Below are positions 2,308 to 58,011 of a DNA stretch of 64,000 nt, in pieces. The DNA lies in the NCBI GenBank assembly GCA_964016885.1, contig OZ024741.1:238142001-238206000 (forward strand). The letters are read 5' to 3'. The notes beneath the pieces are model-generated. The model ran no database searches and was not told where the DNA came from. It worked only from the letters and a program-made list of their open reading frames with translations. The DNA comes from Eledone cirrhosa. Taxonomy: Eukaryota. Each line of letters begins with the position of its first letter. Position 1 is the first letter of the stretch. The translations under genes were made by a program, and so were the position numbers.

Positions 2308-2600
2308 CTTCATTGTTTAATCCTTTACTGTAGTTGTGTATTATGGATGTTGTGTATCCTGCTGTAGTGTTCCAGTGTGACTGCTGCTACTGTGTTCAAG
2401 CATTACTGCTGCTGCTGTGGTGTTCCAGTGTAACAGCTGCTTCTGTAGAAGTGTAACTGCTGATGTGACAGTGGTTGTATGTAGTGGGAGGAGAGTTGTT
2501 AGCCAGATGGTGTTGGGGTGGTAGTTACAACATGATGTCTTCCACACACACAATAGTTTGTATGATGAACAAAGAAAAAAAACCTATCAGCCTCACTTTG
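2308..2600 (-). other. Leader (5'UTR) exon L0 of a protocadherin gene lying beyond the left edge
   Basis: Paralogous to L1-L7; ends ACAATGAAG|GTAAGA (donor GT at 2307-2306); 5' end approximate. Confidence 0.7.
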
Positions 2601-3350: not shown

Positions 3351-3430
3351 CTACGTTGGCTGTAGATAGGTATCTTGTACTTGTTGTCCCTTTTGTATTG
3401 TGGCTGGAACTGGATTGTCATTGGTATATT
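3351..3430 (-). CDS. Protocadherin G1 last coding exon ((E)YTNDNPVPATIQKGQQVQDTYLQPT*)
   Basis: TTTTCTAG acceptor, phase 1 matches the upstream exon, ends TAG TAG; 80 nt in all 8 paralogs. Confidence 0.85.
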
Positions 3431-3589
3431 CTAGAAAAAATATAATATAGAAACAGAAATTATATTTCAATATAACAACTCTGTAAAGATATAAACATTG
3501 ATGTTATATTACACTAAATATAACATTAAATATTGTGTTACAGTAATAAAGAGAATTACATTAATATGTTATGTTTAGATAAAAGTTAC

Positions 3590-3737
3590 CTGGTTGTGCA
3601 GATATCTCTTCATATGGTTTAGTTTTGCCAATACTCTTGTAACCTTCTCTGCTTTTTTGTGATGTTAAGGTGTCACTGTTGTAGTTAGACATGCTGAGAC
3701 TGGTGTGACCTTCATGACTATGGATTGAATCACATCT
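3590..3737 (-). CDS. Protocadherin G1 148-nt cytoplasmic exon (RCDSIHSHEG...KPYEEISAQP)
   Basis: CCACAG acceptor, CAG|GTAACT donor, phase 0 in and phase 1 out; conserved in all paralogs. Confidence 0.85.
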
Positions 3738-3963: not shown

Positions 3964-6366
3964 CTGTGGAACTGGTGGAAGTCTCCTTTGTGTTGTTGAG
4001 AATTTCCACTCATCTGGTAGCTGCTCCATCTCTGGATAAAACTGACTTTTAGATTTTATTGTCTGAAGATTTCTGTTAAATATCTCTTCTGCATTTCTAG
4101 TTATTGCAACAGGATTGTTAGTCTGATACAATAATTGTCTCATCTCAGTCTGAGACAGAAAGTTTGGATTATCTGCTGTCGTAGGTGAGTTATTGGTGTG
4201 ATTAATACATCTGAAAACACACAGTGTTATTGACACTACAATAGCCACAGATATTATTACAGCTGCTGCTACAATGATAATTACCCAAGTCATATTGAGG
4301 TTGTTACCAGACTGTAGGTGGACAGCATTCAACATTGGAGATGTATCATTACTAACAAACAATGTTAGTATGATAACAGTTGTTGCTGATTGAACTGGAG
4401 TACCACCATCTTTCACTATAAACTGTAGGTCATATGTTCCTGCATCATTTTGGTAAACTGTCCGAGAGAAAGATAAGACACCAGTGTGGGAGTTGACTGT
4501 AAACAGGTTTTTATCATTAGATCTCAGTATTCCATATGTGAGGAAAGCATTGTTTCCAGTGTCTTTGTCAGAGGCTTTCAGAATTGTGATGTCTTTCTTA
4601 CTGTGTGGATGGTAGTGGGCATCTAGATTGTAAGGGTCATTAATAGGAAAGGTAAAATAGGGAGCATTATCATTTTTATCTAGAATCTCAATAACAATAT
4701 TGGCAGTGTCATTCAGAGAAGGTGTTCCATTATCTTTGACTAAAACCTGGAATTTATAGATGTCTTTCACTTCCCGATCTATTGATTGTGATGTAGAAAT
4801 AAATCCATATTTTGTAAGTTGGAAAGGAATGTTATCATTGTTGTTATCATTGATGATAGAATATGTAAGCTGACCCCCATCATCAAGATCAGGGTCTGTA
4901 GCATTGATGAAGCCAATAGGGAAGTCAACTTTCTGGTTTTCATAGGTGAGGAATTGGAATGTATCTTTGGTAAAATGTGGCTGTACATCATTGACATCAG
5001 TTACTTTCACTGAGAAATATTTCTTAGTTTCTAGTTTAGGTGATCCCATGTCATGACATACAATAGATACTTTATAGTGGTCCTTTATTTCTCTATCAAG
5101 ATGGCCTTTAATAATCATCTTATATTCTTTAGAATCTATTTTGGTAAGTTTAAATTTATCATGTTCTAAATCACAGCTAACCTCACCATTAGGTCCAACA
5201 TCAGTGTCAGTGACCATAACATAAGCTATAAAACTACCAACTTTACTTGCTTCTGAAACTCCTGTGGAACTTTCTGTTAAAGGTGATACAAAATCTATAT
5301 TTATCACTGGAGCATTATTCTGGTCATTAATTATGTGAATTTGAACTGTGGTTACAGAACTAAGTTGAGGATTCCCTCCATCTCTGGCTTCAATAAATAA
5401 TTTATAAGATTGCATCTTACTAAAGTGAAAATTATCATGTAAAAATATCTCTCCAGTTTTCTTAATCAATACAAAATATTTCAGTGCATTTCGAGATGTT
5501 TTATGGTTGAAATGATAAGAAATCTTTCCATTGTGTCCAGAATCTAGATCTGTGGCTTTTAATGTAAGAATTGGTAAATGCCTTTGATGTGAATTATTTA
5601 TAGATATGTTGTAGACTTTCTGTGAAAATACAGGTGTGTTATCATTAACATCTGTCACAGCTATGTGTACCTTGAGGGTAGCTGTTTGGGGAGGGTTACC
5701 TCTATCTTTAGCTTCAAGTGTCAACATATATGAGTTTTTAACTTCCCTGTCTAATTTCTCTTCTAAAGTTAATTCGGGTATGAAAATGCCATCATGTCGC
5801 CTTGTGATGGAGAGAGAAAATGGTTCTCTCTTACTTTTTCTAATCATGTATGTAATTTGGGAATTCTTTATTGATATATCTTGATCAATGGCATTTGGAA
5901 GAGAGAATTTATCTCCTTTTCTAGCTACCTCAAAAAATTCAATTTTAACTTCATTCTTGGGAAATTCTGGTGGATGGTCATTGATGTCTTCTATAATTAT
6001 TTTTATCTTCAATATCTTCATAAATGTTTCTGCTTTCCTCACTGCTACTTTAACAATTCTGGAACATTCCTTGTTATATGTACACAGTAACTCAGCATCC
6101 AGTGTCTGTGTAGTGTATAGTTTTCCTGTGTTGGTGACATTAAATAAGTGAGAACCACTTGACACTGTCCTTTGTAGTTGTGTAAATGTAATGAGAGTGT
6201 GTTGATGTGTGAGTGAGTGTGTTAAGTTAGAATCAACAGCAATGTCTCCTATATAGGTGTGAGGACTGTCTTCTTCATTGACATGGTATGTAATGTCTAT
6301 AGACAGTACAAGGTTGTACAAGTACAGTAAATGTAGTAGACAGAGTAGACCAATATATGTTGTCAT
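3964..6366 (-). CDS. Protocadherin G1 large exon: signal peptide, 6 cadherin repeats, TM, proximal tail
   Basis: Cadherin motifs (DINDH, LDRE, DVNDNTPVF, ATDLD), EC1 C-X5-C loop LCTYNKEC, hydrophobic TM WVIIIVAAAVIISVAIVVSITL; donor CAG|GTAAAT at 3963; exon acceptor at 6404, 38 nt upstream of the ATG. Confidence 0.95.
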
Positions 6367-6794
6367 GTCTGGAATTCTTCATCACACTTTAGCTGTAGAA
6401 AATTCTACAAAAGATATCAGACATATATACAGACGAAGGAAAATTAAATAAAACAGCTGATAACTATAATAATAATTATGTAAATTCTACTCCTACTTCT
6501 TTTATACCTTCATGAGAACCAACTAAATTTAGAATATATCATTTGACAAGCTAGAATATAATATAGAGGTAGAGTTATTTCGCTGGAAGAAATATTACAT
6601 TGTCAATGATATGAGATAATGTGCTTATTTTAACCCTTTAGAAAATGTATTAAAAAACCCCAAGTAAGATCCAATATTAATTCAGTTAAATCATCATCTG
6701 AGCTGTAAATTTAATTTTTTCTTTCAATTACTTATATGAAAACTTTTAGTCGATCACAAGAACCATATTTTGAATGTTCTATTTTAAATTTTTG

Positions 6795-6910
6795 TGAAGG
6801 GTTGTGGTTAGAGAATTGGATTCACTTATTGTACGGTTGCAAGCTGTATTCCTGAATCAAGGGAATTGTTATGTCTTTGAGCAAGACACTTTATTTTTAT
6901 GTTGCTCTTT
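6795..6910 (+). mobile_element. Degenerate tRNA-derived SINE fragment
   Basis: TGGTTAGAG A-box remnant and TTGAGCAAGACACTTTATTT core shared with 8822-8983 and 18176-18320. Confidence 0.5.
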
Positions 6911-7584
6911 CTACAAGGAGTTGTGACTGGTATATAGTATCAGTAATGGAAAGAAACATTGTTTTCTAAGTCTGTTTTGAAGAATTCCACGCCACACAAT
7001 AAGCAAATGAGGTCTGGAATCTTGTTCATATATCGACTTTAAATTTACCATTGACAGGAAAGAAACAGTTGTAACTTTTCAAGTTACAATGAGGTATTTT
7101 TAGACGGAAATATTTAGCATTTATTTGTAACAGATTAATTAAATAATACACCAAATGTCTAGAATACAATTCAAATGATACAATATATATCGCTAAGTAT
7201 TGAATATAAAAATCTAATCAAAGTTTTCAGGTAAGTTATGTTTCTTAGAAAGCTAATAAAACCAGCTTCAAATACACATTGTCTAATATAGTCAGAGTAC
7301 CACAAGATTTTGAAGAGGAGTATTGTGCATTCAATCCACAGAACCTGACTGTTAATTGCTTAAGTTAATTAGAACACCTCTGTGTGGTTGCTACTTTGTT
7401 AATAACAAAAGTTAAATATCACTCAGATCAAACCATAGAATCTTGAAAATAAAAGATACACAAGTTGTATATTTGCTATACCTAAGAAAAAGTTGGGATG
7501 GTCATGATTAAAAGGTTTTGTCAATATATCTGCTCAATTAAGCCTGTTTGTTGTTATTTAAAGACATCATTCTTTAGTCACTGG

Positions 7585-7745
7585 GCACTGTATTGGAAGA
7601 ATCGGTAGAGTGTCTGACAGCATACTTTGTGGCATATAGTTACACAACCCTTAACGTTCTGAGTTCCAATTTGTATTTTATGCTTACGGGTTTGATAAAA
7701 TAAAGTACCAGTAATGCACTGGGATTGATTCAATCGTCTTGCCCC
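7585..7745 (+). mobile_element. tRNA-derived SINE (GATAAAATAAAGTACCAG family), diverged
   Basis: Similar to 9986-10163 (ATCGGTAGAG, CTGAGTTC, GATAAAATAAAGTACCAGTAATGCACTGGG). Confidence 0.65.
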
Positions 7746-8130
7746 TTCTCTGTTACTAATGAAGATGAAGTAGTTAATGTTAAGCCTGGGTTTGATTCCC
7801 CCAGTGTGTACTCTAGCCAACAAGAGTACTATCTACAGTTTCTTTATCTGCTAGAAACAGCAGCTACGTTTCTCTTATATCACAGCCTACCATATATTCT
7901 AAGAACATACATATTAAAATAAATGATCATGACTGGAATGTGTTTAACCTGGGCTTAAAAAAGACTGCAGCTCTGAGTAGGAGATCTAGAGAAAAGTGTT
8001 TAGTGTGGGGTTGTGCTGGGGTAAGAAACTGTAATGATGAGAACTTTAGGAGGGGATAATGCTCTAAGTAAAGATGGTAAAGAGTATGGTAATCCAAAGA
8101 AAATAAAACCATTACGGTAATAATAATAAT

Positions 8131-8322
8131 AATTGTTTCTACTTTTGGCACAAGACCAGCAATTACACAGTGTATTACTGGTACTTTATTTTATCGACAC
8201 TGTAAGGATGAAAGGCAAAGTTAACCTCGATGAGATTTGAACTCAGACCATAAAGGGCTGTAACTCTTTGCTGCAAAGCATGGCGTCCGACCTTCTACCG
8301 ATACTGCCAATCCACCGCCCTC
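8131..8322 (-). mobile_element. tRNA-derived SINE, full length
   Basis: Reverse complement of 9986-10163; flanked by (AAT)n runs. Confidence 0.8.
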
Positions 8323-8821
8323 ATAATAATAATAATAATAATGATTTCTTATATGGGCAGAAGGCAAATGAAACCATTACAGTAGTAGTAACATGTCTGC
8401 CTGTATGGTATGTCTGTAAGACTGAGTAGTACTCCAATGTAGGATGCACTTAAGGTTTATATAGTTCCTTTTAAAGTAATATTTGGAATATAATTTTGGT
8501 AAGACTATATGCAGTTGGAGAGAGAGAGATGGCGTTGTTCATATCTTGATAGAATGAGGTACAGACATGTTTTCTTGAAAAGTGTAGAGATTGTATCTTT
8601 GTATTGTAAAACAAGACAAGTGTCTGTTTTCCTCACTGTAGCATGTGTTGGAGATTTCTAAGTTGTATGTGACCTGCTTATCTAACAACTTAAGAAAGTG
8701 TAAATATGCCGTACAGATCTCCAGATACAGTACACCAAGAACAGTTAGAGATAAAATTACATGTGGTTATTGCATATGTATTTTTGCAGTAAATATTACA
8801 CACATTAGCAGTTAATGACAG

Positions 8822-8983
8822 GGACACCCGTCCTATCATCTCATTTCTACAGCTGAGTAAACTGGAGCAATGTGAAATAAAGTGTCTTGCTCAAGGAAAC
8901 AACACATCAGCCGGTCTGAGAATTGAACTCACAACCTTTCGATTGCAAGGCCAATGCTCTAACCACTAAGCCATGTGCCTCCA
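8822..8983 (-). mobile_element. tRNA-derived SINE head and core (second family)
   Basis: Minus strand reads GGAGGCACATGGCTTAGTGGTTAGAGCATTGG...GAGTTCAATTCTC...CCTTGAGCAAGACACTT (A and B boxes). Confidence 0.8.
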
Positions 8984-9119
8984 TATATATACTATAAATA
9001 TATTATGTATACATAATATATATATATAATGTGTGTGTATTGAACAATGAAAATGGAGCAAAAGTCAAAGATAGGTTCTTGGTTGGTTCATTGTTTTACA
9101 GTCGTTTCAGAGGGTTGAT

Positions 9120-9612
9120 TAATCATGGCAGGCATCTACCATACTCTGAACGCCTTGCTTCCCTGGGCATGGATACATTGAAGCTCCGACGCCTGGCAAT
9201 TGACTTGGTAAACACCCACAAAATTGTTAACCATCTTGCCAACAACAACCCTGAGTACCTTTTTGATTTCCATGTGTCTAACACACGTGGGCATGCCCAC
9301 AAAGTCAGAAAACAGCACAGCTCCCATGACTTTCGGAAACATTTTTTCACGCTCAGAGTTGCTGAAGCATGGAACAAGCTACATGCATCAGTTGTTAGCT
9401 GTCGAGACACTGCATCCTTTAAGGCCTCCATGCTTCCCAAGATTCGCCAACACTACACCTAATGTTCCCCCTCCATACACATACACACATCTATATCATG
9501 ACTCATACACTATTCACTTCCCTGACATTTGTGTATTATTCTATGTACTATACATGCACCTTTGACGAGTTGTAGTGCACCTGAGCACTTTACACAATAA
9601 TTTCATTATTAT
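9120..9612 (+). mobile_element. CR1/L2-group LINE 3' end (ORF2 C-terminus, 3'UTR and ATT tail)
   Basis: Translates LPYSERLASLGMDTLKLRRL...TRGHAHKVRKQ...RKHFFTLRVAEAWNKL; near copy at 57231-58010. Confidence 0.9.
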
Positions 9613-9985
9613 ATATAGAATATGAGCCAATAATTCCACTTGGCTCTGGTTTGTACAGAAAGATTAGATGGCCTGGTTGATAAAATACTAGAAAACCAGT
9701 TGAGCAATCATTAGTTCATACTATGTCACAAACACATCATGTCTCTATGATCAAAGCACACTTCATTCCCTATAGACAGGTACACCTAACAATGTAGCTA
9801 GCACAGGAGATGTAACTCACCCCTATAGGTAGAGGTTGTATCGTGGTATTTATGAGTAATTTATTACCTTTCAACGTCTCTTGCCAAGAGAGCTATGTAA
9901 TCTTAAAGAAACTGGAGATAAGGACCAACACAATGGATACTTGCTATTACAAAAAGGTTTAGCTCTCATTAAATTAACTATGTAA

Positions 9986-10163
9986 GGTGGTGGCTTGGCA
10001 GTATCGGTAGAGGGTCGGACGCCATGCTTTCCAGCATAGTTACGTCCCCTTGCGGTCTGAGTTCAAATCCCACCGAGGTTAACTTTGCCTTTCATCCTTA
10101 CGATAAAATAAAGTACCAGTAATGCACTGGGTAATTGATGGCCTTGTGCCAAAAGTAGAAACA
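9986..10163 (+). mobile_element. tRNA-derived SINE with 18-bp target-site duplication
   Basis: A box TGGCAGTATCGG, B box GAGTTCAAATCC; ATTAAATTAACTATGTAA at 9968-9985 and 10164-10181; empty paralogous site near 1078-1095. Confidence 0.9.
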
Positions 10164-11290
10164 ATTAAATTAACTATGTAAATGTGTAGGGAAAACTGAG
10201 CTTAGACAAAATAAAAAAAAAAGACGTTTGATGTTGAAGCTGATCAATATTCATTTAATAGAGCTATATTTGTGATGGGAAGTTATAGGGAATAATGATA
10301 ATTACAGAATAAAACAATTCTTTAGAATGACAGTAAATCACAGTAAACCAATTATATTGTGTTCTAATGAAATTTAATTAAAGGTGTTTGGGCTTACAAA
10401 ACTAAAGATTGACAGCCTAGATAGAGGATATTTTATAGAATTATTCAACTAATATCTTCATGTAATACTTTATATTAAACTCAACTAACATACAGAGGCA
10501 TTAATAACAGTGGCACAATAGTTTACAAATTATGTGGAAATATTTTACAATGTTATATTTTCTAGAGACAAAAAATTTTGAAAATAAAATTAATTGTAAT
10601 AAAAATAATTTTGATGACAATATCATCATCAATTTATATCTAACAATAAACATAGTAAGATACCAAGATTAAATTCTATTTATCAACATTTAATAAAAAA
10701 CCTTCTGAATATCTTATTTACATAGAAATATAAAATGGATATTTAACAAGATATAGGGATAGTAATAATCTTGTAGACTTCATTAAAGCCATAGCAAGAT
10801 AAAGATTTAAATATTCAATTATTACGGCAACACAGATATAAATTATAATGGCATAGATTATTCATAAACAGTTATATAGTCTATCAATAAATATATATCC
10901 AACAGTTGAATAAATATATAGATGTAATATATATATCTTAATAATATCGTGTTTGATTCTAATATTCAAATATGTAGTCTATTTAGTGGTAATTATATGA
11001 CAACTACTGCTGTTGTTTTTAATGGTGGAAAAGATAGCTAGATCCCTCTTGTCTCCAGTTCCTACAGTGCATACAGATATTAAATGTTTATGATGATGAT
11101 GAAGATATGTATCGAGAGAGAGATGGATAGATAGATAGATATACAAGATGGTAGACATTTTAGCTATTATGCTTACTCTGTAATTCAGTATAATACATTT
11201 ATATTTATATTATAAATATATTTGCTGTAATGACTATGAAAAGGAAAGAAAAATACATAGAGAGAGGAAGAGAAAGAGAGGGAGTCTTAC

Positions 11291-11585
11291 CTTCATTGTT
11301 TAATCCTTTACTGTAGTTGTGTATTATGGATGTTGTGTATCCTGCTGTAGTGTTCCAGTGTGACTGCTGCTACTGTGTTCAAGCATTACTGCTGCTGCTG
11401 TGGTGTTCCAGTGTAACAGCTGCTTCTGTAGAAGTGTAACTGCTGATGTGACAGTGGTTGTATGTAGTGGGAGGAGAGTTGTTAGCCAGATGGTGTTGGG
11501 GTGGTAGTTACAACATGATGTCTTCCACACACACAATAGTGTGTATGATGAACAAAGAAAAAAATCTATCAGCCTCACTTTGAGT
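11291..11585 (-). other. Leader exon L1 (of G1)
   Basis: Ends ACAATGAAG|GTAAGA; predicted to splice to the acceptor at 6404; 5' end approximate. Confidence 0.7.
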
Positions 11586-11637
11586 ATTGAAAGAAATATA
11601 TAAAATCTCTCTCATCCAATAGGAAATTACTGTAATG
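11568..11637 (-). promoter_or_regulatory. Promoter P1 (CCAAT 11616-11620)
   Basis: Same conserved CATCCAATAGGAAATTACTG motif and TATATA. Confidence 0.65.
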
Positions 11638-12478: not shown

Positions 12479-14915
12479 CTACGTTGGCTGTAGATAGGTA
12501 TCTTGTACTTGTTGTCCCTTTTGTATTGTGGCTGGAACTGGATTGTCATTGGTATATTCTGGAAAATATAAAATATAGAAACAGAAATTATATTTCAAAA
12601 TAACAACTCTGTAAATATATAAACATTGATGTTATATTACAATAGCTATAACATTATATATTGTCTAAAGAGAATTATATTTCTATGTTATGTTTAGATA
12701 AAAGTTACCTGGTTGTGCAGATATCTCTTCACATAAGTCTTGCCAATACTCTTGTGACCTTCTCTGGTTTTTTGTGATGTTAAGGTGTCACTGTTGTAGT
12801 TAGACATGCTGAGACTGGTGCGACCTTCATGACTATGGATTGAATCACATCTCTGTGGATTATGAAAGTCAGTAGAGTGAATCACAATATTCAACAGAAA
12901 AAGGTTTATATTTATTATATAAAATATTTCACATACAACAAAAGAAAGGATTTTTAAAATGAATATCATTTATTAAATGCTACAAGTGGAGAGATGCTGA
13001 TGAGAACGATGATGATGATCAGATTAACAACAGAAATATTTAAAAATAATATTTACCTGTGGAACTGGTGGAAGTCTCTTTTGTGTTGTTGAGAATTTCC
13101 ACTCATCTGGTAGCTGTTCCATCTCTGGATAAAACTGACTTTTAGATTGTAGTGTCTGAAGATTTCTGTTAAATATATCTTCTGCATTTCTCGTTATTGC
13201 AACAGGATTGTTGGTGTGATACAATAATTGTCTCATCTCAGTCGGAGACAGAAAGTTTGGATTATCTGCTGTTGTAGGTGAGTTATTGGTGTGATTAACA
13301 CTTCTGTAAACACACAGTGTTATTGACACTACAATAGCCACAGATATTATTACAGCTGCTGCTACAATGATAATTACCCAAGTCATATTGAGATTGGTAC
13401 CAGTCTGTAAGTGGACTGCAGTCAACATTGGAGATGTATCATTACTAACAAACAGTGTTAGTATGATCACAGTTGTTGCTGATTGAACTGGAGTACCACC
13501 ATCCTTCACTATAAACTGTAGGTCATATGTTCCTGCATCATTTTGGTAAACTGTCCAAGAGAAAGATAAGACACCAGTATGGGAGTTGACTGTAAACAGG
13601 TTTTTATCATTAGATCTCAGTATTCCGTATGTGAGGAAAGCATTGTTTCCAGTGTCTTTGTCAGAGGCTTTCAGAATTGTGATGTCTTTCTTATTGTGTG
13701 GATGGTAGTGGACATCTAGATTGTAAGGGTCATTAATAGGAAAGGTAAAATAGGGAGCATTATCATTTTTATCTAGAATCTCAATAAACTATAAAACTAT
13801 CTAGTTCACTGTCTTCTGAAACTGCTGTGGAACTTTCTGTTAAAGGAGATACAAAATCTATATTTATCACTGGAGCATTATTCTGGTTATCAATTGCATT
13901 AATTTGAACTGTGGTTACTGAACTGAGGGGTGGTTTTCCTTCATCGCTGTCTTCAATAAATAATTTATAGGACTGCATCTTACTAAAGTGAAAATTATCA
14001 TGTAAAAATATCTCTCAAGTTTTCTTATCTAATACAAAATATTTCTGGGCATTTCGAGATGTTTTATGGTTGAAATGGTAAGAAATCTTCCCATTGTGTC
14101 CAGAATCTTTTAAAGCAAGAATTGGTAAATGTCTTTGATGTGAATTATTTATAGACATGTTGTAGACTTTCTGTGAAAATACAGGTGTGTTATCATTGAA
14201 ATCTGTCACAGTTATGTATACCTTGAGGGTAGCTGTTTGGGGAGGGTTCCCTCCATCTTTTGCTTCAAGTGTCAACATATATGAGTCTCTTTCTTCCCTG
14301 TCTAATTTGTCTTGTAAAGTTAATTCAGGTATGAAGACTCCATCATGTCACCTTGTGACAGAAAGGGAAAACGGTTCTTTCTTACTTTTCTTAATCATGT
14401 ATGTAATTTGAGAATTCTTTATTGAAATGTCTTGATCAATGGCATTTGAAAGAAAGATTTTATCTTCTTCTTTTCCATCCTGTTCAGCAAATTCAATTTC
14501 AACTTTATTCTTGGGAAATTCTGGTGAATGGTCATTAATGTCTTCTATTAATATTTTTATCTTAAGAATTTTCATACAGGCTTTTCCTGTCCTCACTGCT
14601 ACTTTAACAATTCTGGAACATTCCTTGTTATATGTACACAGTGACTCAGCATCCAGTGTCCGTGTAGTGTATAGTTTTCTAGTGTTGGTGACATTGAATA
14701 AATGAGAACCACTTGACACTGTCCTTTGTAGTTGTGTAAATGTAATGAGAGTGTGTTGTTGATGTGTAAGAGAGTGTGTTAAGTTAGAATCAACAGCAAT
14801 GTCTCCTATATAGGTGAGGACTGCCTTCTTCGTTGACATGGTATGTAATGTCAGTAGACAGTACAAGAGTCATCAGTAAATGTAGTAGACAAAGTAGACC
14901 AATATATGCTGTCAT
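12479..14915 (-). pseudogene. Protocadherin G2 pseudogene (exons 14953-13057, 12852-12709, 12558-12479)
   Basis: 2-nt deletion near 14815, nonsense codons at 14348 and 14015, 12-nt deletion near 14108, ~530-bp deletion at ~13787 removing most of EC4 and EC5, 4-nt deletion in the 148-nt exon (now 144 nt). Confidence 0.92.
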
Positions 14916-15109
14916 GTCTGGAATTCTTCCTCACACTTTAGCAGTTGAAATTTCTACAAAAGACAACAGAAATATTTTAATTCTAAGCCAAATAACCTGT
15001 AGTAGTAGTAGTACTAATAAATTGGCACATGCAGGAATAGTACAAACAATAAACACAGCCCCTTGAACAACTGTGGGAAGACAGTTGCTAGAGCCTGAAA
15101 TGACATGCG

Positions 15110-15930
15110 GCTAGCTGACTAAGGGTAAAATCCTCCTCATCCCTAAGACACATCAAACTCCCAAAACTAATGAACTATAAAATGCCTTCTTACAACTTAC
15201 AAGACCTCAACTGCAATAATATCGCAAAAACTGACCAAGTACTTACTAAAAAAATTCTGTTTGCAGAAGAGCAGAAAGGATAGTACAAAGATACATATGG
15301 ATGTAATGACCAATTACTAATAAACAAAGTCATAACAGAAAACTAAAAAAAAAAAGAAATCTCAGCATGCTATGAACTGATTGCCAGAAGGTGTTTGACA
15401 GTGTCTCCCATACGTGAACATTTAACATTAGCAGTAAACAAAGTAGGACCACGTAGTAGGATTTATAAAAACTTAGTCCATCCGAACTCCAATAGAAGAA
15501 TATTTCAACGGGACTCCCTTTCACCACCCTTCTTCTGCCTAGCATAGATACCCTTATCCGAGACACTAAACAGAACTTGGTTATATAATAAATAAGTGTC
15601 TATCCTCACAGAAAACAATATATCTATCAAGGAAATGGAGGAATTATCCCAATATATGTATTTTGAGATAGAAATAATCCGAATGTGGTTGATGGAAACA
15701 GAAACAATCCGTTATGAGAATGATAAAAAAAAAACACTCAGGCAGAAACTTAACCAAAACTCCATGAATTAGAAATATATACAGCATACAGAAAATAGCA
15801 TTACTAGGCACTGCATACATATTGCGAAGAGTACTCTCAATACAACAGAAATAACAACACAAAAGAAAAACACTGCACATACCCAAGGCTCACAGAGCTG
15901 TACCCAGAAACATAGTGATAATATGTAACA
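15110..15930 (+). mobile_element. R4/Dong-like non-LTR retrotransposon relic
   Basis: Broken frames give EEQKG...YGCNDQLLINKV...NLSML*TDCQKVFDSVSHT (RT) and IQKIALLGTAYILRRVLS (C-terminus), which I recognise as R4/Dong-clade motifs. Confidence 0.7.
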
Positions 15931-16254
15931 AAACAAGACAAATAATAATAATGATAATCATTGTGTAAATGTTATTTCTTTCTAAATTCTTGTGAACATC
16001 AGAAAATATTTTCTCTCTTTTAATTTGATAATAGTTACAGTAGTGTTTCCCTTGTTTTGGCATGATAACAAGAGGACAACATGTGCAGCCATAAAACATA
16101 CTGGACATTCCCTAATAGCTCAATGCTATACTGCTAGAAGTTAACAAAATTACATTGATCCCCAGTTGACATTTAATGAAGAAAATGCTCTACTGTTCAA
16201 GCTGTATGTAAAATCCTATATTACAATATACACAGAAGTAAGCACTAAAAGCAC

Positions 16255-16705
16255 AAGGGAAATAGACTAACTTGATTATTCAGGTGGCTCCCTCAAAGTT
16301 GTTGACAATTTTTGTTATCTAGGTGATACCTAGGATGTTATGAAAGTGTGGAAGACAGAATAAGAACAGGAAGGAATAAATTTAGGAAACTAGTACCTCT
16401 GTAGATAACAAAGGACTGCTCTCACAGAGAAGGTAGACTGTATAATGCTTACATGTGAACCACAATGCTACATGACTGGGTGGGATATATGACTTGACTA
16501 CAGAAGACCTATAAAGGTTAGAAAGAAATGATGTGAGCATGCTCTGGTGGATGTTATGGTGTTAGTGTGCATAAACGGCATAGCATAAGCGAGCAAAATT
16601 CAGTATAAGAAGGGTCTGTTGTAGTGTGCAAGAGAGAAGACGAAGATGATGTGAATATGTGATACAATTGGAAGATGACAGGTGTAAAAAGAAATGCAGA
16701 GAAAT
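16255..16705 (+). mobile_element. RTE-clade LINE ORF relic
   Basis: LKVVDNFCYLGD..., RIRTG.NKFRKLVPL..., LERNDVSMLWWM fragments; paralogous relics at ~24830, ~33440 and ~42380. Confidence 0.7.
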
Positions 16706-16899
16706 TCCCCACACTACCCAAGGTTACTCCCATTCCTCTCTACCACACATGTCTTACACCAATGACATACTTTCTTCATCCATTTTCTTCCTCACATCCA
16801 CAACTTGAACCTGTCACTAGTCCCAGCTCTTGACACTTACCCATGGTATACTACCTCTCATGCTTACCATCCCCGTTCAATTCCCCTACCTCATATAGT

Positions 16900-17408
16900 A
16901 GGGAAGGCCCATCAATTTATCAGTTTATGACCAACAACCTTCCGAGTATTGGTGCCACAATAAAACACACCCTACACACCCTATAAGGTGGTTGGTGATA
17001 GGAAGGGTACCCAACTGGAGAAACCATGTAAAAAAAAGGTAGAAAGGATCCTTCAGTTGTATCATGGGCATGACAACCTCTCTAGTGTTGGTGATCTACA
17101 TGATAATTGCCTTCAGTACACTCTCTAAAGTGGTTGGGAGGACTTTTCAGCTGTTAATGACATGATAAGCTCCATGCTACTATAAAATGCATATGGTAGA
17201 GTGTGTAAATGAGATGTGTAAATGAGATACAGGCCTTTGGGCAGTCTGAGCACCTGCTAGAGTGAAGAAACGCACATGAGATCAAGGTCCTTGGCATTAC
17301 CTAGAGGTCAGTAGCTCTGCTTGAGTACTGGCTTGCTCAGTGATGACCCATCTAACCCTTGCTAGCAGGGAAATGGATGTTCAATGGTAAAGATAATGAT
17401 GATGATGA
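16900..17408 (+). repeat. Degenerate tandem ~120-bp units ending in a (GAT)n tail (RTE-associated 3' region)
   Basis: Repeated GTGGTTGGTGATAGGAAGGG / GACAACCTCTCTAGTGTTGGTG; ends GCTAGCAGGGAAATGGATGTT...GATGATGATG. Confidence 0.55.
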
Positions 17409-18175
17409 CAGAGGTTGGAAAATAAAACAAATAAAAGATGTTTGATAGTAAAGATGTCTAATATTAGGTAGTAGAGATATTTGACTGATGAGAAGACATT
17501 ATTAGTATTAATGATAATTAGAGAATAAAACAATTCTATGGTATCTTAGGGGACTGTAAACCTATATAATATTGTATTCTAGAGAAATTTAATTGAAGGA
17601 GTTTGGGTTTACAAAACTGAAGATTCAAGTTATGACAAGCTGGATATAAGGATATATTTTCTAGAGACAAAAAATGTTGGCAATAAAATATTTCAGTGAA
17701 TGTTGATGAAAAATAATATCTATCTGTATATTCAATAAATATTTAGATATTTCAATGAAATTAATTGTAATAAAAATAATTGAAAGCATATTTACATATG
17801 ATATGTAAAGTTGTATATTTTATGGTTACATATAAAATATTTCAGTTGATGAAAAATAAAATCTACAATATACTTCCTGAAATATTTCAATATTTTAATC
17901 AAATTAATTGTAATAAAAATAATTTAAACCACAGAATATGTAAGGTAGTTATAAAATATATTGCTACATAAAAATATTTCTGGTATGATTTGTTACTGAT
18001 ACATTTTAATAAGATATGACAATATCATCAGTTTATATCTCACAATACATATAGTAAGATTTAAATATTCAATTATTATGGCAGCACAGATATAAACTAT
18101 AAAGGCATATATTATTCACAAACAGTCCTATTGTCTATCAATCAATATATTCTGATAGTTAAATAAATATATACG

Positions 18176-18495
18176 CATGGAGGCACATGGCTTAGTGGTT
18201 AGAGCATTGGCCTTGCAATCGACTGGGTGATGTGTTGTTTCCTTGAGCAAGACACTTTATTTCACATTACTCCAGTTTACTCAGCTGTAGAAATGAGATG
18301 ATAGGGACTGGGGTCCATATCATTCCACTGCAAAGTGGTCGTGGAGGTGCCACGGCAAAAAAGCACCCAGCACTCACTGTAAATGAGGTTGGTGTTAGGA
18401 AGGGCATCCAGCTGTAGAAATCAAGCCAGAATCAGTTCCCGTCCCACCCTTGCAAGCAGGGAAAAAGCGGACATAAAATGGAATGATGATGATGA
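18176..18495 (+). mobile_element. SINE with tRNA head, core and RTE-like (GAT)n tail
   Basis: GGAGGCACATGGCTTAGTGG head, CCTTGAGCAAGACACTT core, GGTTGGTGTTAGGAAGGGCATCCAGCTGTAGAAA...GATGATGATG tail. Confidence 0.8.
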
Positions 18496-18517
18496 CATAA
18501 TTTCAAATATGTTACAC

Positions 18518-18980
18518 CACCATCATCATCATCATCGTTTAACGTCCATCTTCCACGCTTGCATGGGTTTGGACGGGAGTTTTCCCACTTGAGGCAGGGT
18601 TTGTTGTCCTGCTCGTATAGGACAGTCTGGTGGGTTTTCTACGGCTGGATGCCCTTCCTAACACCAACCACGTTTACAGTGTGGACTGGGAGGTTTTTAC
18701 CGTGTTACCTACACGGCCACATTACAGTGTGGACTGTGTGTTTTTTTGTCGTGACACCTACACGACCTCATTTGTTTCGGACTGGATGTTGTGGTACCAA
18801 CATAACTTCACATTTAAGGGGGTGGTGTGGATGGGGTGGGGGTAGTGGGACAGGGGTGTATTTTGTTAGAGGTGCCTACTGACTGTAGGTTTCGCTTTGT
18901 ACTTAGGCAAGGCGGGTCTTCTGTATGACTGTGTAGCGCCAAAGATCTCGGTCCAGTGACATTGTCTTGGAGAGGTGTAA
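18518..18980 (-). mobile_element. RTE-like retroelement 3' end with (GAT)n tail
   Basis: Reverse complement of 29426-29917; (CAT)n at 18520-18536. Confidence 0.8.
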
Positions 18981-19350
18981 ATATTGTTTATAAAATATAT
19001 AGAAGCAATATATATAGAGATTAATATCTTTTGTATAATCTGACATGTTAATCTATCTAGAAGTAATTGTACTACTACTACTACTACAACTGGTGCTGGT
19101 GTTGTTAATGGTGGAAGGCATGGCAAGATCTCTCAATCATCCATGGTCCTAGTCCTTTTATATATATATATATACACAATGGCAGACATATTCAGCTGTT
19201 ATATTAGCTGTTGTTTTTAATGGTGGAAGGGATGGCTAGATCTATCTTTCCTCCAGCTCCAGAAGAGAAAAGCAAAATTAAATGATGATGATTCACATAT
19301 ATATATATATATATAAATAAATAAAGAGATAGAGAGTGAAAGAGATTTAC

Positions 19351-19612
19351 CTTAATTTCCTTAATCCTTCACTGTAGTTGTGTGTGATGGATGATGTGTA
19401 TCCTGTTGTAGTGTTCCAGTGTAACTGCTGTAACTGTGTCCTAGAATTATTGCTGCTGATGTGGTGTAACTGCTGCTGTGGCAGTAGCTATATATAATGG
19501 GAGGGGGAATGTTAGCCAGATGGTTTTGGGGTGGTAGTTACAACACTATGTCTTATTCACGCAATAGTGTGTATCAGTAACAAAGAATAAAACCTATCAG
19601 CCTCTCTTTCAA
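19351..19612 (-). other. Leader exon L2 (of pseudogene G2)
   Basis: Ends GAAATTAAG|GTAAAT; donor kept but the ATG found in other leaders is ATT. Confidence 0.65.
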
Positions 19613-21989: not shown

Positions 21990-24389
21990 CTGTGGAACTG
22001 GTGGAAGTCTCCTTTGTGTTGTTGAGAATTTCCACTCATCTGGTAGCTGTTCCATCTCTGGATAAAACTGACTTTTAGATTTTATTGTCTGAAGATTTCT
22101 GTTAAATATCTCTTCTGCATTTCTAGTTATTGCAACAGGATTGTTGGTATGATACAGTAATTGTCTCATCTCAGTCTGAGACAGAAAGTTTGAATTATCT
22201 GCTGTTGTAGGTGAGTTATTGGTGTGATTTATACATCTGAAAACACACAGTGTTATTGACACTACAATAGCCACAGATATTATTACAGCTGCTGCTACAA
22301 TGATAATTACCCAAGTCATATTGAGGTCATTACCAGACTGTAAGTGGACAGCATTCAACATTGGAGATGTATCATTACTAACAAACAATGTTAGTATGAT
22401 AACAGTTGTTGCTGATTGAACTGGAGTACCACCATCTTTCACTATAAACTGTAGGTCATATGTTCCTGCATCATTTTGGTATACTGTCCGAGAGAAAGAT
22501 AAGACACCAGTGTGGGAGTTGACTGTAAACAGGTTTTTATCATTAGATCTCAGTATTCCATATGTGAGGAAAGCATTGTTTCCAGTGTCTTTGTCAGAGG
22601 CTTTCAGAATTGTGATGTCTTTCTTACTGTGTGGATGGTAGTGGACATCTAGATTGTAAGGGTCATTAATAGGGAAGGTAAAATAGGGAGCATTATCATT
22701 TTTATCTAGAATCTCAATAACAATATTGGCAGTGTCATTCAGAGAAGGTGTTCCATTATCTTTGACTAAAACCTGGAATTTATAGATGTCTTTCACTTCC
22801 CGATCTATTGATTGTGATGTAGAAATAAATCCATATTTTGTAAGTTGGAAAGGAATGTTATCATTGTTGTTATCATTGATGATAGAATATGTAAGTAGAC
22901 CTCCATCTTCAAGATCAGGGTCTGTAGCATTGATGAAGCCAATAGGGAAGTCAACTTTCTGGTTTTCATAGGTGAGGAATTGGAATGTATCTTTGGTAAA
23001 ATGTGGCTGTACATCATTGACATCAGTTACTTTCACTGAGAAATATTTCTTAGTTTCTAGTTGAGGTGATCCCATATCATGACATACAATAGATACTTTA
23101 AAGTGATCGTTTATTTCTCTATCAAGATGTCCCTTAACAATTATTTTATATTCTTTAGAATCTATTTTGGCAAGTTTAAATTTATCATGTTTTAAATTAC
23201 AGCTAACTGCACTATTAGGTCCAACATCAGTGTCAGTGACCATAACATAAGCTATAAAACTATCTAGTTCACTGTCTTCTGAAACTGCTGTGGAACTTTC
23301 TGTTAAAGGGGATACAAAATCTATATTTATCACTGGAGCATTATTTTGGTTATTAATAACATTAATTTGAACTGTGATTACTGAACTAAGGGGAGGTTTT
23401 CCTCCATCACGCACTTCAATAAATAATTTATAAGGTTGCATCTTACTAAGGTGAAAATTATCATGTAAAAATATCTCTCCAGTTTTCTTATTCAATACAA
23501 AATATTTCTGGACATTTCGAGATGTTTTATGGTTGAAATGATAAGAAATATTCCCATTGTGTCCAGAATCTAGATCTGTGGCTTTTAAAGTAAGAATTGG
23601 TAAATGTTTTTGATGTGAATTATTTATAGATATGTTGTAGACTTTCTGTGAAAATACAGGTGTATTATCATTAACATCTGTCACAGCTATGTGTACTTTG
23701 AGGGTAGCTGTTTGGGGAGGGTTCCCTCCATCTTTAGCTTCAAGTGTTAACATATATGAATCTTTTACTTCTCTGTCTAATTTCTCTTCCAAAATTAGTT
23801 CAGGTATATAGACACCATCATGTCGCTTCTTGACAGAGAGATAAAATGGTTCTCTCTTATATTTCTTAATAATATATGTAATTTGAGAATTCTTTATTGA
23901 AATATCTTGATCAATGGCATTTGGAAGGGAGATTTTACTTCCTTTCAGGTCTTTTTCAGAAAATTCTATTTCAAATTCATTCTCTGGAAATTCTGGTGAA
24001 TGGTCATTGAGGTCTTCAATTAATATTTTTATCTTAAGAATTTTCATGAAACTTTTTCCTTTCCTCACTGCTACTTTAACAATTCTGGAACATTCCTTGT
24101 TATATGTACACAGTGACTCAGCATCCAGTGTCTGTGTAGTGTATAGTTTTCCTGTGTTGGTGACATTGAATAAGTGAGAACCACTTGACACTGTCCTTTG
24201 TAGTTGTGTAAATGTAATGAGAGTGTGTTGTTGATGTGTAAGAGAGTGTGTTAAGTTAGAATCAACAGCAATGTCTCCTATATAGGTGTGAGGACTGCCT
24301 TCTTCATTGACATGGTATGTAATGTCTATAGACAATACAAGGGTCATCAATAAATGTAGTAGACAGAGTAGAGCAATATATGTTGTCAT
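21990..24389 (-). CDS. Protocadherin G3 large exon (800 codons)
   Basis: Intact signal-6EC-TM ORF; CAG|GTAAAT donor; acceptor at 24427. Confidence 0.95.
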
Positions 24390-24477
24390 GTCTGGAATTC
24401 TTCATCGCACTTCAACAGTAATAATTTCTACAAAAACACAACAGAAATAATCTAAATGAAATAAACAGAATAAGAAA

Positions 24478-24570
24478 TAATTGTTTCTACTATTGGCACA
24501 AGGCCAGCAATTATCCAGTACATTACTGGTACTTTATTTTATCGACCCCGTAAGGATGAAAGGCAAAGTC
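24478..24570 (-). mobile_element. 5'-truncated tRNA-SINE fragment
   Basis: Matches the 3' half of the 9986-10163 family; absent at the paralogous site near 33105. Confidence 0.7.
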
Positions 24571-24829
24571 AAAATAATGATAACAATAATCTAAATTGAG
24601 GAAATGTTATTTTTATCTCCATATGCACTCCAGTGGACAGAAATGAATAACTTTAAATATGTTATCTCTTTTGATCTTGTAATTGTTACAGCTGTATCTC
24701 ACTTGGTTTCATATGAGGGCTGAATAAATAACAAGATGGGGTGGGTGGGTGTAGTATACTGTAAAACGTCCTTGACATTCCATAGTACCTCAATGCTTCT
24801 TACACGGGAGAAGTAAGCACTAAGAACAT

Positions 24830-25762
24830 GGAGCAAGCATGCTCCAGTGGGTGTATAATGTTAATGTAAGTGAACTGAAAGAAAAACTTTGTATAAGAGG
24901 GGTCTGATGCATTGTGCAAAAGAGAAGACTAAGATACTATGGACATGTGATGCATATGGAAGAAATCACATGTATACACTAGTGGAGAAGACTTCCCTGT
25001 TAGCATAAAATGTAACTTGACAACTCCTGCCATCAATGTACACTACCCAGGATCACCACACCATTTCTCTCTTTCTTCACATTGTCAAACATCACTGCAC
25101 TTGTCTTACACTCATAACATACTTTATTTATCAGTTCTCTAATCACATTACCTCTAGAACCACTATATTGAACCTGTCACTCCCATCATTTCTTCTCACT
25201 TACCCCTGATATACCTATCGTACTTCTTATCTCCCAATCCTATACTCACTCAACACCTCCATAGAGTAAAGAGAGGCTTCAGTTAGGTTTATGACCAATA
25301 ACCTCCCTAATGTTGGTGCAAAATAAGACACACATTACATGCTCTACAAAATAGTTGGGGTTAGAAAGGGCTTACAACCATAGAAATCATGGCAAAAGGG
25401 TTGAGAGGAACCTCCAGTCACATCATGCCAAGTTCTCAGGTGCTGGTAACATGAAAAATGTGCCTAGTACACCCTGTAATGTTGTTAGTGATAGGAAGAT
25501 CATCAAGACATAGAAAATTTGCCAAACAAAGGCTTATGAGGACTCTGCAGCTGTGTGACAGGTATGACAAACTCTGTAGTGCTGGTGCTACTATAAAATG
25601 CACTTGGTAAAGCACAAGAACATATGTATGTAACATGTGAGCCCTCTGCCCTTCTGAGCACTCAGCAGAGTGCAGGGACATATGTAAGAAAGATAAGGAC
25701 TATCTGAGAGGTCTATAGTTCCAGGGGAAATGGATATTAAATGGCGATGATGTTGATGATGA
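24830..25762 (+). mobile_element. Old RTE-like relic plus tandem 3' units
   Basis: Paralogous to 16500-17408 and 33680-34660. Confidence 0.55.
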
Positions 25763-26029
25763 CTGAGGTTGGAAAAAGTAACACATAAAAGATGTTTGAT
25801 ATTAAAACAGTCAAATATTAGTTATTAGATGTATGTCTGTGAAGGACAGTCATCATAAGGATTAATGATAATTAGAGAATAAAACAATTCTATAGAATGA
25901 TAGTAGACCTTACAGAACAGTAGACTATATTAAAACTATGTTCCAAAATGTACTAACAACATACTAATAGGAACATTCATTGTTCCCATAGAATATCCTT
26001 TTGTTTTATATAATAACAACTTCACTCTC

Positions 26030-26560
26030 ATTTAAGGGCTAACCCGTGTTGTGATGTCAGCGAAGAAATTTCGGTATACATTGCCCCAGATGATGGCGAG
26101 GGAGATGCATTGGAATAACCATTTCAACTCGTTTGGATCATTCTTGCAGATAGTGAACTCTACCCAGATAGTAGTGAGGAGGGATGTGATCCAGGGGTCA
26201 AGAAATCCTGAAGTCTCTACTACCATAAGCCCGACCACAAACCTAACAGGGAATGACTGATATTTCAACAATTAGTCCCCTTTGGCCTGACAAGTAGCAA
26301 AGAATGGGTTAGTCACCAAATGCACCAAGTTGCCACTGGAAAAGGTGTCACAGTATGTAGCATCCTAGATGGGGAGGCCCACCACCGTGGAATGGGCAGA
26401 TACTCATGCTGTGTGGCCTTTTATCATGCCCTTGTCCCAGACCCACAGGCTTGAGCTGGGTAGGGAAGCCTGCAGTGACCAAGCCATGCTTTATGATCCC
26501 ATTGAGAGCAGCATGTCAGGGGTGGCATGGGGGTTCGGGTGGGAGCATTGTAATATATGA
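26030..26560 (-). mobile_element. CRE-like non-LTR retrotransposon C-terminal restriction-like endonuclease relic
   Basis: Minus strand gives HAALNGIIKHGLVTAGFPTQLKPVGLGQGHDKRP...DATYCDTF...KYQSF...VETSG...DPNELKWLFQCISLAIIWGN, resembling RHxxLNDII..KRPDG..WDAT..DT..KY..VET.G..QRISLAI.RGN. Confidence 0.7.
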
Positions 26561-27902
26561 AAATTTCCTTGAGAGAGTTTGGAGCAATAAATCTAATGAT
26601 TCAGGACATGTTAACATAGATAGGGGATATTTTAAAGAATGATTCAACCACTGACTTCATAGAATATTTTATCTTAAACAAGATGTCAAATATTGAAATT
26701 ATAGAAACAATAGTTATTAAAATAGGAGACAGTGGTATTAATAGCACAGACAATATTTTACCATGCTACAAAAATGATAAATATAAAATATATTCGCAAA
26801 TAACTTTAATGAAACCAAATCTATAATGAGCATTTAGATTGTTTTAGCAAATTATTTGTAATGAAATGATTTTAACCATTTATGTAAATGTAACATTGTA
26901 TATTGTTCTGCTATACATATAATATATGTGGTATGGTTTTTACTAAATAACAACTATAATGTGGTAAATATTATTTTGTACTAACAGCATGATACTTTTT
27001 CTGATTAATTCTTAACACATTTATAAAACATTCATCTATTATTGTCAGAGTTAATATATTTTAACAACTCGTGACAATATCATCAGTTTATATCTCACAT
27101 TAAACATAGTAAGATATCAAGACTAAACTACATTTATCAACGTTTTAATAATAATTCTTATCATATTATTTACATAGAAATATAACATAGATATTTAACA
27201 TGATATATAGGGGTTTTAATTAAAGCTAAAAAAGATTAAGATTTAAGTATTCAATTATTACAGCAACACAGATATAAACTGTTGTGACATATATTATTCA
27301 CAAACAGATTTATTGTCTATCAATAAATAAATTTCAAACAGTTAAATAAATATATACACCTGATACAACTATTTTACACCAATATAGTATATAAAATATA
27401 TAGAAGCAATATATATATATATAAATTAATATCTGTTGTATAATGTCTTGGTTGATTTTGCTATTACTATAAGCAGTTTTTCTAGAGGTATTTGTACTTC
27501 TACTAGTGATGTTGTTGTTGTTAATGGTGGAAGTGATAGCAAGATCTCTCTATCCTCCACACTCAAAATCCCTTTATATATATAACATGGCAGACATATT
27601 CAGCAGTTATCTTAGTCATTGTATTTAATGGTGGAAGGGAAGGCTAGATCTATTTTTTCCTCAGTTCCAGCAGGGGAACTTGGCAATGCATGATGATGAT
27701 GATAATGATACATATATAGAAAGAACTACATAGACAAACATCTAAATATATAGATAGTTAAATAGATAGACAGACAGATAAATAGATAGATATACAATAG
27801 GGTAAACATTTTAGATATAATCCTTTGTCTGTGATTCCCTATGAACACATGATTTAAATGTTATATGGATATGAAAAAATAGAAAAAAAGTGAGAGATTT
27901 AC

Positions 27903-35100: not shown

Positions 35101-35109
35101 ACAACTTCC

Positions 35110-58010: not shown

Positions 58011-58011
58011 A

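What the first reader, a model, noticed from the sequence alone, without database searches (positions are those of the whole stretch)
6363..11296. Conserved split uORF whose stop codon overlaps the protocadherin start (ATGA); its start is lost only in the pseudogene
Seen: every leader of an intact gene ends ATG-(A/C)AG|GT (ATG at 2313, 11296, 27908, 37026, 43743, 50494, 59103). Every visible large exon has a TTTTGTAG acceptor exactly 38 nt before the ATG. Splicing gives 15-codon uORFs: MKNFLQLKCDEEFQT (G1), MKKLLLLKCDEEFQT (G3), MKKFLLLKCDEEFQT (G4), MKKFLQLQCDEEFQT (G5), MQKFLLLKCDEEFQT (G6) and MQKFLLLKYDEEFQT (G7). All end ...CAG ACA TGA, where acATGA contains the main ATG. Several differences are synonymous in this frame (CTA/CTG/TTG, TGT/TGC) and none makes a stop. 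In pseudogene G2 the leader ATG is ATT (19354-19356), and a second out-of-frame ATG 16 nt upstream of the start is also lost. Inference: a translational control device in every unit (termination-reinitiation, or repression via leaky scanning), possibly peptide-dependent, that could set protocadherin dosage. I know of no description of it but could not search.
Basis: partly seen in the sequence, partly recalled or inferred. Interest (0 to 1): 0.8.

Follow-up and report, generated by a model that had tools for sequence, protein, structure and literature searches.

The report
Family-wide uORF brake on octopus protocadherins
Most genes in three arrays of octopus brain-wiring (protocadherin) genes carry a start codon six bases before a predicted first intron, and in this array the short reading frame it would open stops exactly on the protein's own start codon, which likely acts as a brake on how much protein each gene makes.

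Summary
The window is part of a 51-gene octopod protocadherin array. Two claims fail array-wide. The upstream ATG is also lost in 8 of 48 intact genes. The peptide is not selected: 10 synonymous variants against 9-13 expected. The frame does look selected: 0 premature stops against 2.5-3.6 expected (P 0.004-0.044), 6 of 8 length changes keep frame against 25-30% background, and 32 of 35 open uORFs end on the main ATG. The leader ATG is older than this array: 37 of 38 and 15 of 16 leaders in two distant arrays have it, 0 of 22 in a fourth. There the uORF ends before the main start, so the ATGA overlap is local. Best reading (50%): a repressive uORF, bypassed mainly by leaky scanning. Rivals: a splicing or DNA element with an incidental ATG (28%); coupled termination-reinitiation (15%; no TURBS motif, 0 of 50). 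Not found in seven literature searches.

The parts
11291..11296 (-). G1 leader-end uATG1 (11296-11294, A at -3) and codon 2 AAG; first two codons of the predicted uORF
   Evidence: sequence; A or G at -3 in 40 of 40 array units that have the ATG
11291..11550 (-). G1 predicted non-coding leader exon (5' end unknown; upper bound is a guess from the CCAAT-like box)
   Evidence: one homologous copy upstream of 50 of 51 large exons in the array; homologues in three other arrays
11616..11620 (-). ATTGG (reverse CCAAT-like box, label recalled), likely promoter element
   Evidence: CCTATTGG 301-548 nt before the donor in 24 of the 28 proximal units
11384..11386 (-). extra leader ATG (-134 from main start) opening a 20-codon uORF that ends before uATG1; present in G1, G3-G6, lost in G2
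6405..11290 (-). predicted first intron of G1, 4886 nt, GTAAGA...TTTTGTAG
   Evidence: no internal block shared by more than 19 of 49 other first introns; not tested with RNA
6367..6404 (-). 38-nt untranslated start of exon 2, carrying uORF codons 3-15
6380..6382 (-). uATG2 at -16, opening a 35-codon out-of-frame ORF that overlaps the coding sequence
   Evidence: absent from several intact genes; its frame is the annotated N-terminus of an O. sinensis protein, P0037
6363..6366 (-). ATGA: main ATG (6366-6364) overlapped by the uORF stop TGA (6365-6363)
3964..6366 (-). G1 large coding exon: signal peptide, cadherin repeats, transmembrane segment
   Evidence: Pfam PF00028 x5 and PF08266; closest named hits are octopod protocadherins at 82-87%
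3351..3737 (-). G1 predicted exons 3 (3737-3590) and 4 (3430-3351 to stop); 876-aa product
   Evidence: GT/AG sites joined in silico keep the frame open
2308..2313 (-). leader-end ATG-AAG of the next gene, whose large exon lies left of the window
14912..19356 (-). G2 pseudogene 5' end: ATT at 19356-19354, acceptor 14953, ATGA 14915; three upstream ATGs lost
   Evidence: 2-nt frameshift at codon 33-34 and about 530-nt deletion
24386..27908 (-). G3 split uORF: uATG 27908, donor 27903, acceptor 24427, ATGA 24389
33015..37026 (-). G4 split uORF: uATG 37026, donor 37021, acceptor 33056, ATGA 33018
41929..43743 (-). G5 split uORF: uATG 43743, donor 43738, acceptor 41970, ATGA 41932
48134..50494 (-). 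G6 split uORF: uATG 50494, donor 50489, acceptor 48175, ATGA 48137
55094..59103 (-). G7 split uORF: uATG 59103, donor 59098, acceptor 55135, ATGA 55097

Best explanation
The leader-end ATG likely opens a translated upstream ORF that dampens protocadherin synthesis, and in this array it would end on the main start codon so that ribosomes it captures likely cannot restart there. Shown: a leader-like block ending ATG-NNN|GT precedes most genes in three arrays; in-silico splicing gives a 12-16-codon ORF ending on the main ATG in 32 of 35 intact open units of this array; start, frame and stop are kept while the peptide drifts. Inferred: the splice is real; scanning ribosomes start at uATG1 (purine at -3); with no spacer, ordinary 40S reinitiation at the overlapped AUG is poor, so protein comes mostly from ribosomes that leak past uATG1 and uATG2. 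A premature stop would create a spacer, allow reinitiation and weaken the brake, which would explain why premature stops are missing. The ancestral element (arrays C and D) is a shorter uORF ending 12-75 nt before the start, a milder, reinitiation-permissive damper. It is tunable rather than essential, since whole clades have lost it.
For: Premature stops 0 observed against 2.5-3.6 expected at the variable sites in 21 units (P 0.004-0.044); the uATG2 frame shows no avoidance (3 against 1.4-2.1). Tree simulation P(0)=0.025. UTR length changes: open units 8 changes with 2 frame-breaking, closed units 8 changes with 5 frame-breaking; background gaps of 3n are 25% (91 gaps) and 30% (56 gaps). Three of 4 ATG losses fall in lineages where codon 2 is TAG, P 0.02-0.04. 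Five units whose uATG1 is closed or lost keep an internal in-frame ATG at -23/-26 ending on the same ATGA; the two distal units with GTG there keep uATG1 open. Position -3 is always a purine while -2 varies (7 changes). The leader ATG is kept in 37 of 38 (array C) and 15 of 16 (array D) leaders; its ORF ends before the signal-peptide ATG in 36 of 37 and 15 of 15. A conserved start with a neutral peptide is the usual uORF pattern (PMC7889888, passages). Overlap by even 1 nt 'likely precludes' ordinary reinitiation (PMC5972666, section 16).
Against: No RNA or ribosome evidence. All tests are post hoc, rest on few events and use trees that gene conversion distorts; with the long-branch unit included the stop test is P about 0.05 (1 of 22). 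The ATG is no more conserved than the block around it (-14 to -4), and 5.6% of leader triplets are as invariant. 11 of 48 intact genes have no uORF ending on the start. Array B (0 of 22), one singleton, and one intact gene each in C and D lack the ATG. Local AAT/GAT repeats favour 3-nt slips and create ATGs by themselves. A competing acceptor at -62 in G3-G5 would end the uORF early. In other octopods upstream ATGs sit in frame in some annotated proteins (P0024, P0027, P0028, P0053), so the frame is not fixed across species.
Confidence: 0.5

Rival explanations
1. The leader end is a conserved splicing or DNA-binding element (GGAT..ACAATG next to the donor; the resemblance to a SOX-type motif and to purine-rich splicing enhancers is recalled), the ATG is incidental or a relic of an old start codon, and the ATGA overlap is one founder's accident copied by duplication and gene conversion.
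For: The whole block -14 to -4 is equally invariant. A founder gets this layout by chance about 4% of the time. Many intact genes lack it. Frames vary freely in array C. The leader ATG is in frame with the protein in one array-C gene and possibly in O. vulgaris P0053, as a relic start would be. EC1 is nearly identical across paralogues with different signal peptides, a sign of conversion.
Against: A DNA or splice element does not predict stop avoidance in one frame, frame-keeping length changes only where the uORF is open, or ATG loss concentrated behind a TAG. The C of the CAAT core changes 7 times while -3 stays a purine.
Confidence: 0.28
2. Coupled termination-reinitiation: ribosomes translate the uORF, pass over the inhibitory uATG2 and restart on the overlapped AUG, so the uORF helps rather than blocks protocadherin synthesis and may also protect the mRNA from decay.
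For: Exact stop-start overlap in 37 of 48 intact units, including one TAATG and two on newly gained in-frame ATGs. The +4 base changes 2 times against 5 and 7 for +5 and +6. AUGA and UAAUG overlaps mark this mechanism in viruses (PMC10275272, passages).
Against: No UGGGA TURBS core within 100 nt in 0 of 50 units. No unusual structure on either side (z -1.2 to +0.4). No selected peptide. Arrays C and D have no overlap. Both frame-breaking changes among open units are tolerated in intact genes.
Confidence: 0.15
3. The 15-residue peptide itself is functional (stalling peptide or microprotein).
For: 6 of 12 variants are synonymous among the six intact window genes.
Against: 10 of 43 against 9-13 expected in 21 units; 6 of 21 against 5.0 in the 16 closest; third positions are not faster (2.3 against 2.8 and 2.6); peptides differ freely between clades and arrays.
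Confidence: 0.03
4. The leader is not spliced to this acceptor in the main transcript, so the uORF does not exist as drawn.
For: No RNA test was obtained; alternative AGs exist at -62, -26 and -2.
Against: One leader per gene in four arrays, with consensus donor and T-rich acceptor at homologous places (the GT and AG invariance is partly built into how I picked the sites). No shared internal exon-like block. The -26 and -2 AGs keep the same frame. P0053 begins with a 12-residue stretch resembling the spliced array-C uORF (4 of 12 identical; weak).
Confidence: 0.04

Closest known systems
Human SLAMF1 (CD150) long-isoform uORF4 with UGAUG overlap (PMC5972666, section 16 read; primary paper not seen)
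   Same: Cellular mRNA of a membrane protein; last short uORF ends on the main start codon; several uORFs in the leader; mechanism unsettled.
   Different: SLAMF1 has a TURBS-like UGGGA, absent here (0 of 50); 29 codons against 12-16; a single gene, not a trait held across dozens of tandem paralogues; overlap type UGAUG against AUGA.
Conserved inhibitory uORFs of Hox mRNAs (PMC8892498, abstract read)
   Same: uORFs shared by many paralogues of a clustered developmental gene family; inhibitory.
   Different: Hox uORF starts are in poor context; here -3 is always a purine. Hox uORFs were tested with CAGE and reporters; this one is untested. No stop-start overlap is mentioned in the abstract.
TURBS-type termination-reinitiation of caliciviruses and influenza B (PMC10275272, passages)
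   Same: AUGA or UAAUG overlap of stop and start.
   Different: Follows a long ORF and needs a structured TURBS element; here a short uORF, no motif, no structure signal.
Start-stop elements (bioRxiv 10.1101/2021.07.26.453809, abstract read)
   Same: Five intact paralogues read ATG-TAG at the leader end.
   Different: Here the start-stop is one state of the same position, and the ATG is lost more often behind it.
Coleoid protocadherin arrays (PMC9068888, passages; PMC6339937, term search)
   Same: Multi-exonic genes head to tail, whole-gene duplication, gene conversion, interspersed pseudogenes.
   Different: The passages seen say nothing about leader exons or uORFs; PMC6339937 has 0 occurrences of UTR, intron, upstream or translation.

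Membership tests
octopod clustered protocadherin | cadherin repeats with N-terminal cadherin-like domain in one large exon | tested here: met
   Pfam PF00028 x5, PF08266; 82-87% identity to named octopod protocadherins
octopod clustered protocadherin | head-to-tail tandem array of whole genes | tested here: met
   51 large exons on one strand in about 560 kb
regulatory uORF | AUG and stop lie in the mature 5' leader | not tested
   predicted from splice-site conservation only; no RNA evidence
regulatory uORF | start codon conserved beyond neutral expectation | tested here: inconclusive
   1 change in 28 proximal units against a mean of 8.2 per triplet, but 5.6% of triplets and the adjacent block are as invariant; kept in three distant arrays
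regulatory uORF | frame and stop position under constraint | tested here: met
   0 stops against 2.5-3.6 expected; 6 of 8 length changes in frame; modest, post hoc, this array only
regulatory uORF | translated and changes main-ORF output | not testable with these tools
   needs ribosome profiling and reporters
conserved-peptide uORF | excess of synonymous change | tested here: not met
TURBS termination-reinitiation | overlapping or close stop and start | tested here: met
   37 of 48 intact units
TURBS termination-reinitiation | UGGGA core upstream of the overlap | tested here: not met
   0 of 50 within 100 nt
TURBS termination-reinitiation | structured RNA element | tested here: not met
   four single-strand folds of G1 and G5, z -1.2 to +0.4; the spliced junction itself was not folded

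The most novel reading that the evidence does not exclude
Octopus protocadherin arrays carry a heritable translational dial: an ancient intron-split uORF whose state (stop on the start codon, stop upstream, start-stop, absent) sets each paralogue's output, with this array using TURBS-free coupled termination-reinitiation. ATG-TAG copies whose downstream frame is still open to the ATGA, beside sisters that read ATG-TGG, could even be switched by A-to-I editing.
Probability: 0.12. Interest if true: 0.85.

Novelty: new variant of a known kind. Interest (0 to 1): 0.5.

Why it matters
How cephalopods control hundreds of whole-gene protocadherin copies is open; the passages read describe the arrays and their expression, not their translation. 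A shared leader uORF with several natural states gives a direct, cheap test of post-transcriptional dosage control. The paralogues also form a natural allelic series for a general question: what a eukaryotic ribosome does when a short uORF stops on the main AUG. If the rival holds, the result is a conserved leader-end element for these genes, useful but ordinary.

Tried and rejected
No RNA was laid on the locus, so the junction and any A-to-I editing stay untested. A scan of metagenome contigs for cephalopod loci found none (194 pattern matches, 0 confirmed), so no DNA from other species was seen; cross-species points rest on annotated protein N-termini only. Earlier scan notes: none. Peptide selection rejected. 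TURBS motif and structure not found. In-frame use of the leader ATG in the window genes rejected: a stop sits at -15 in the main frame and no AG between it and the start gives frame 0. A hidden micro-exon is unlikely. Structure around the ATG-TAG sites is not unusual (z -1.8 to +0.4, mononucleotide shuffles), so the editing idea has no support beyond the TAG/TGG sisters. Leaders were not found within the fetched 17-27 kb for 9 of the 10 dispersed protocadherin genes examined, so these say nothing. 'ATG loss marks a pseudogene' failed in arrays C and D: both ATG-less genes are intact. The UTR-versus-intron rate (1.7 against 11 per site) was not used, because the intron is saturated and conversion homogenises exon 2. 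The 2015 octopus genome paper was not available and no supplements were read; gene models there could already show the leader exon.
Full report
Setting. The window holds seven protocadherin starts on the minus strand. The G1 exon has five Pfam cadherin repeats and a cadherin-like N-terminal domain, and its closest named relatives are octopod protocadherins at 82-87%. In the own genome it lies inside a head-to-tail array, here called A, of 51 large exons over about 560 kb. Other arrays at 50-59% identity lie further along the contig; I sampled three: B (240.03-240.23 Mb), C (239.28-239.65 Mb) and D (252.37-252.52 Mb).

Observation. The splice is a prediction. Support is genomic: 50 of 51 large exons have one leader-like block 1.7-13 kb upstream ending in a consensus donor, and a T-rich acceptor at a homologous place. 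GT and AG invariance is partly built into how the sites were picked. I reset three acceptors (G3-G5, where an AG at -62 scored slightly higher) and two donors by hand to the homologous site. Three units (two with insertions in the UTR, one with two leaders) were left out and put back. No block inside the first intron is shared by more than 19 of 49 other units (seven introns displayed).

What fails. Among 50 units the leader ATG is missing in 10, of which 8 have intact frames; 5 more intact units read ATG-TAG. The peptide drifts: 10 synonymous variants of 43 against 9-13 expected in 21 units, 6 of 21 against 5.0 in the 16 closest, and third positions are not faster. The 6-of-12 excess seen in the window is a small-sample effect in leucine codons. 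One founder would show this layout by chance about 4% of the time, so the window copies alone prove little.

What holds. Of 35 intact units with an open leader ATG, 32 end on the first in-frame ATG; with internal ATGs counted, 37 of 48 intact units do and 11 do not. In the 21 proximal units with a 38-nt UTR no variant makes a premature stop, against 2.5-3.6 expected at the same sites (P 0.004-0.044 by transition bias); the uATG2 frame shows 3 against 1.4-2.1 and the main frame 0 against 0.9-1.3. A tree simulation gives P 0.025, or about 0.05 with the one long-branch unit that does stop early. UTR length changes 8 times among open units and breaks frame twice; among closed units it changes 8 times and breaks frame 5 times; background gaps are 25-30% multiples of three. 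Three of four ATG losses lie in lineages with TAG as codon 2 (P 0.02-0.04). Five closed units keep an internal ATG at -23 or -26 that ends on the same ATGA, and both insertions into this UTR are in ATG-less genes. These are post hoc tests on few events, trees are distorted by gene conversion, and AAT/GAT repeats favour 3-nt slips. Together they lean toward selection on a translated frame but do not prove it.

Depth. The leaders of all four arrays are homologous. The ATG near -6 from the donor is in 37 of 38 C leaders and 15 of 16 D leaders, and in 0 of 22 B leaders; one singleton has lost it. A genome-wide pattern built from these leaders gave 80 matches, 62 of them in this protocadherin region, against 8 for the control; this is circular and shows only that the motif is not a dispersed repeat. 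In C the uORF is 4-17 codons in all three frames and ends before the signal-peptide ATG in 36 of 37 units, one being in frame with the protein; in D it is 8-9 codons and stops 12 nt before the start in 15 of 15. So the old feature is the leader ATG and a short ORF that does not run far into the coding sequence; the ATGA overlap belongs to array A. The ATG is not more conserved than the block around it, but -3 stays a purine while -2 varies, which fits start-codon context better than a SOX-type core (motif recalled). Annotated proteins of other octopods show the same upstream frames: P0037 starts with the uATG2 frame, P0024, P0027 and P0028 have an upstream ATG in frame, and P0053 resembles the spliced C uORF joined in frame (inference from short peptides).

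Mechanism. Shown: anatomy and conservation. Inferred: ribosomes start at the leader ATG, translate 12-16 codons and stop on the main AUG. A review argues that such an overlap precludes ordinary reinitiation (PMC5972666, section 16), and another that overlapping uORFs repress and are bypassed by leaky scanning (PMC10275272, passages). A premature stop would add a spacer and weaken repression, which fits its absence. Both frame-breaking changes among open units moved to the uATG2 frame and none to the main frame with its stop at -15. Coupled reinitiation is possible but lacks a UGGGA motif (0 of 50), structure or a selected peptide. I put the brake at 0.50, an incidental ATG in a splice or DNA element at 0.28, coupling at 0.15, a wrong splice at 0.04 and a functional peptide at 0.03.

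Novelty. uORFs with conserved starts and neutral peptides are common (PMC7889888, passages), indel-size constraint behind upstream ATGs is known (PMC3146882, abstract), and family-wide uORFs are known for Hox (PMC8892498, abstract). Stop-start overlap in a cellular leader is known for SLAMF1. Seven searches found no description for cephalopod protocadherins: searches returned 0 papers, and the listings showed none on this. The library lacks most subscription papers, the 2015 genome paper was not available, and no supplement was read. Verdict: a real, partly overstated feature; a new variant of a known kind; interest 0.5.

Noticed in passing
window 12700-19356 (G2): The pseudogene has lost three upstream ATGs (-134, -44, -16) although its leader is about 88% and its exon about 93% identical to neighbours; it carries a 2-nt frameshift and a deletion of about 530 nt.
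   Followed up: partly
G000:C2:238508818-238572887 (L051-L058): Four genes read ATG-TGG at the leader end where two sisters read ATG-TAG with the downstream frame still open to the ATGA; UAG is a preferred A-to-I editing triplet (recalled). No structure signal.
   Followed up: partly
G000:C2:238456116 and 238385954: Insertions of about 59 and 180 nt (repeat-like) sit inside the exon-2 UTR; both genes lack the leader ATG and have intact frames.
   Followed up: partly
G000:C2:238348423 and 238986141: Leader copies with no large exon close downstream (next exon 20 kb away behind another leader; none found in 26 kb): likely orphans of deleted genes or very long introns.
   Followed up: no
G000:C2:239334413 and 238327782: Leader ATG in frame with the protein in one array-C gene; in the array-A gene an ATG-TAG is followed by an open in-frame stretch to the main start.
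   Followed up: no
array A large exons, e.g. window 6100-6300: The first cadherin repeat is nearly identical across paralogues whose signal peptides differ, a sign of gene conversion.
   Followed up: no
window 11616-11620 and matching sites in G2-G7: A conserved CAGTAATTTCCTATTGG block, likely a shared promoter element, upstream of 24 of 28 proximal leaders.
   Followed up: partly
window 11342-11449 and all leaders: Leaders contain a 25-28-nt CAGCAGCAGTTACACTGGA-type repeat whose core is shared by all four arrays; function unknown.
   Followed up: no
window 8998-9462 (+), 57201-57857 (+), about 100-560: Fragments resembling the end of a LINE reverse transcriptase inside introns (label recalled, not scanned).
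   Followed up: no
L001-L007 (G000:C2:237.94-238.01 Mb): About 65 kb of low-complexity satellite arrays directly flank the end of the protocadherin array.
   Followed up: no
array B, L061-L080: Genes without the leader ATG have exon-2 UTRs of very variable length (49-112 nt) ending in CAA repeats.
   Followed up: partly
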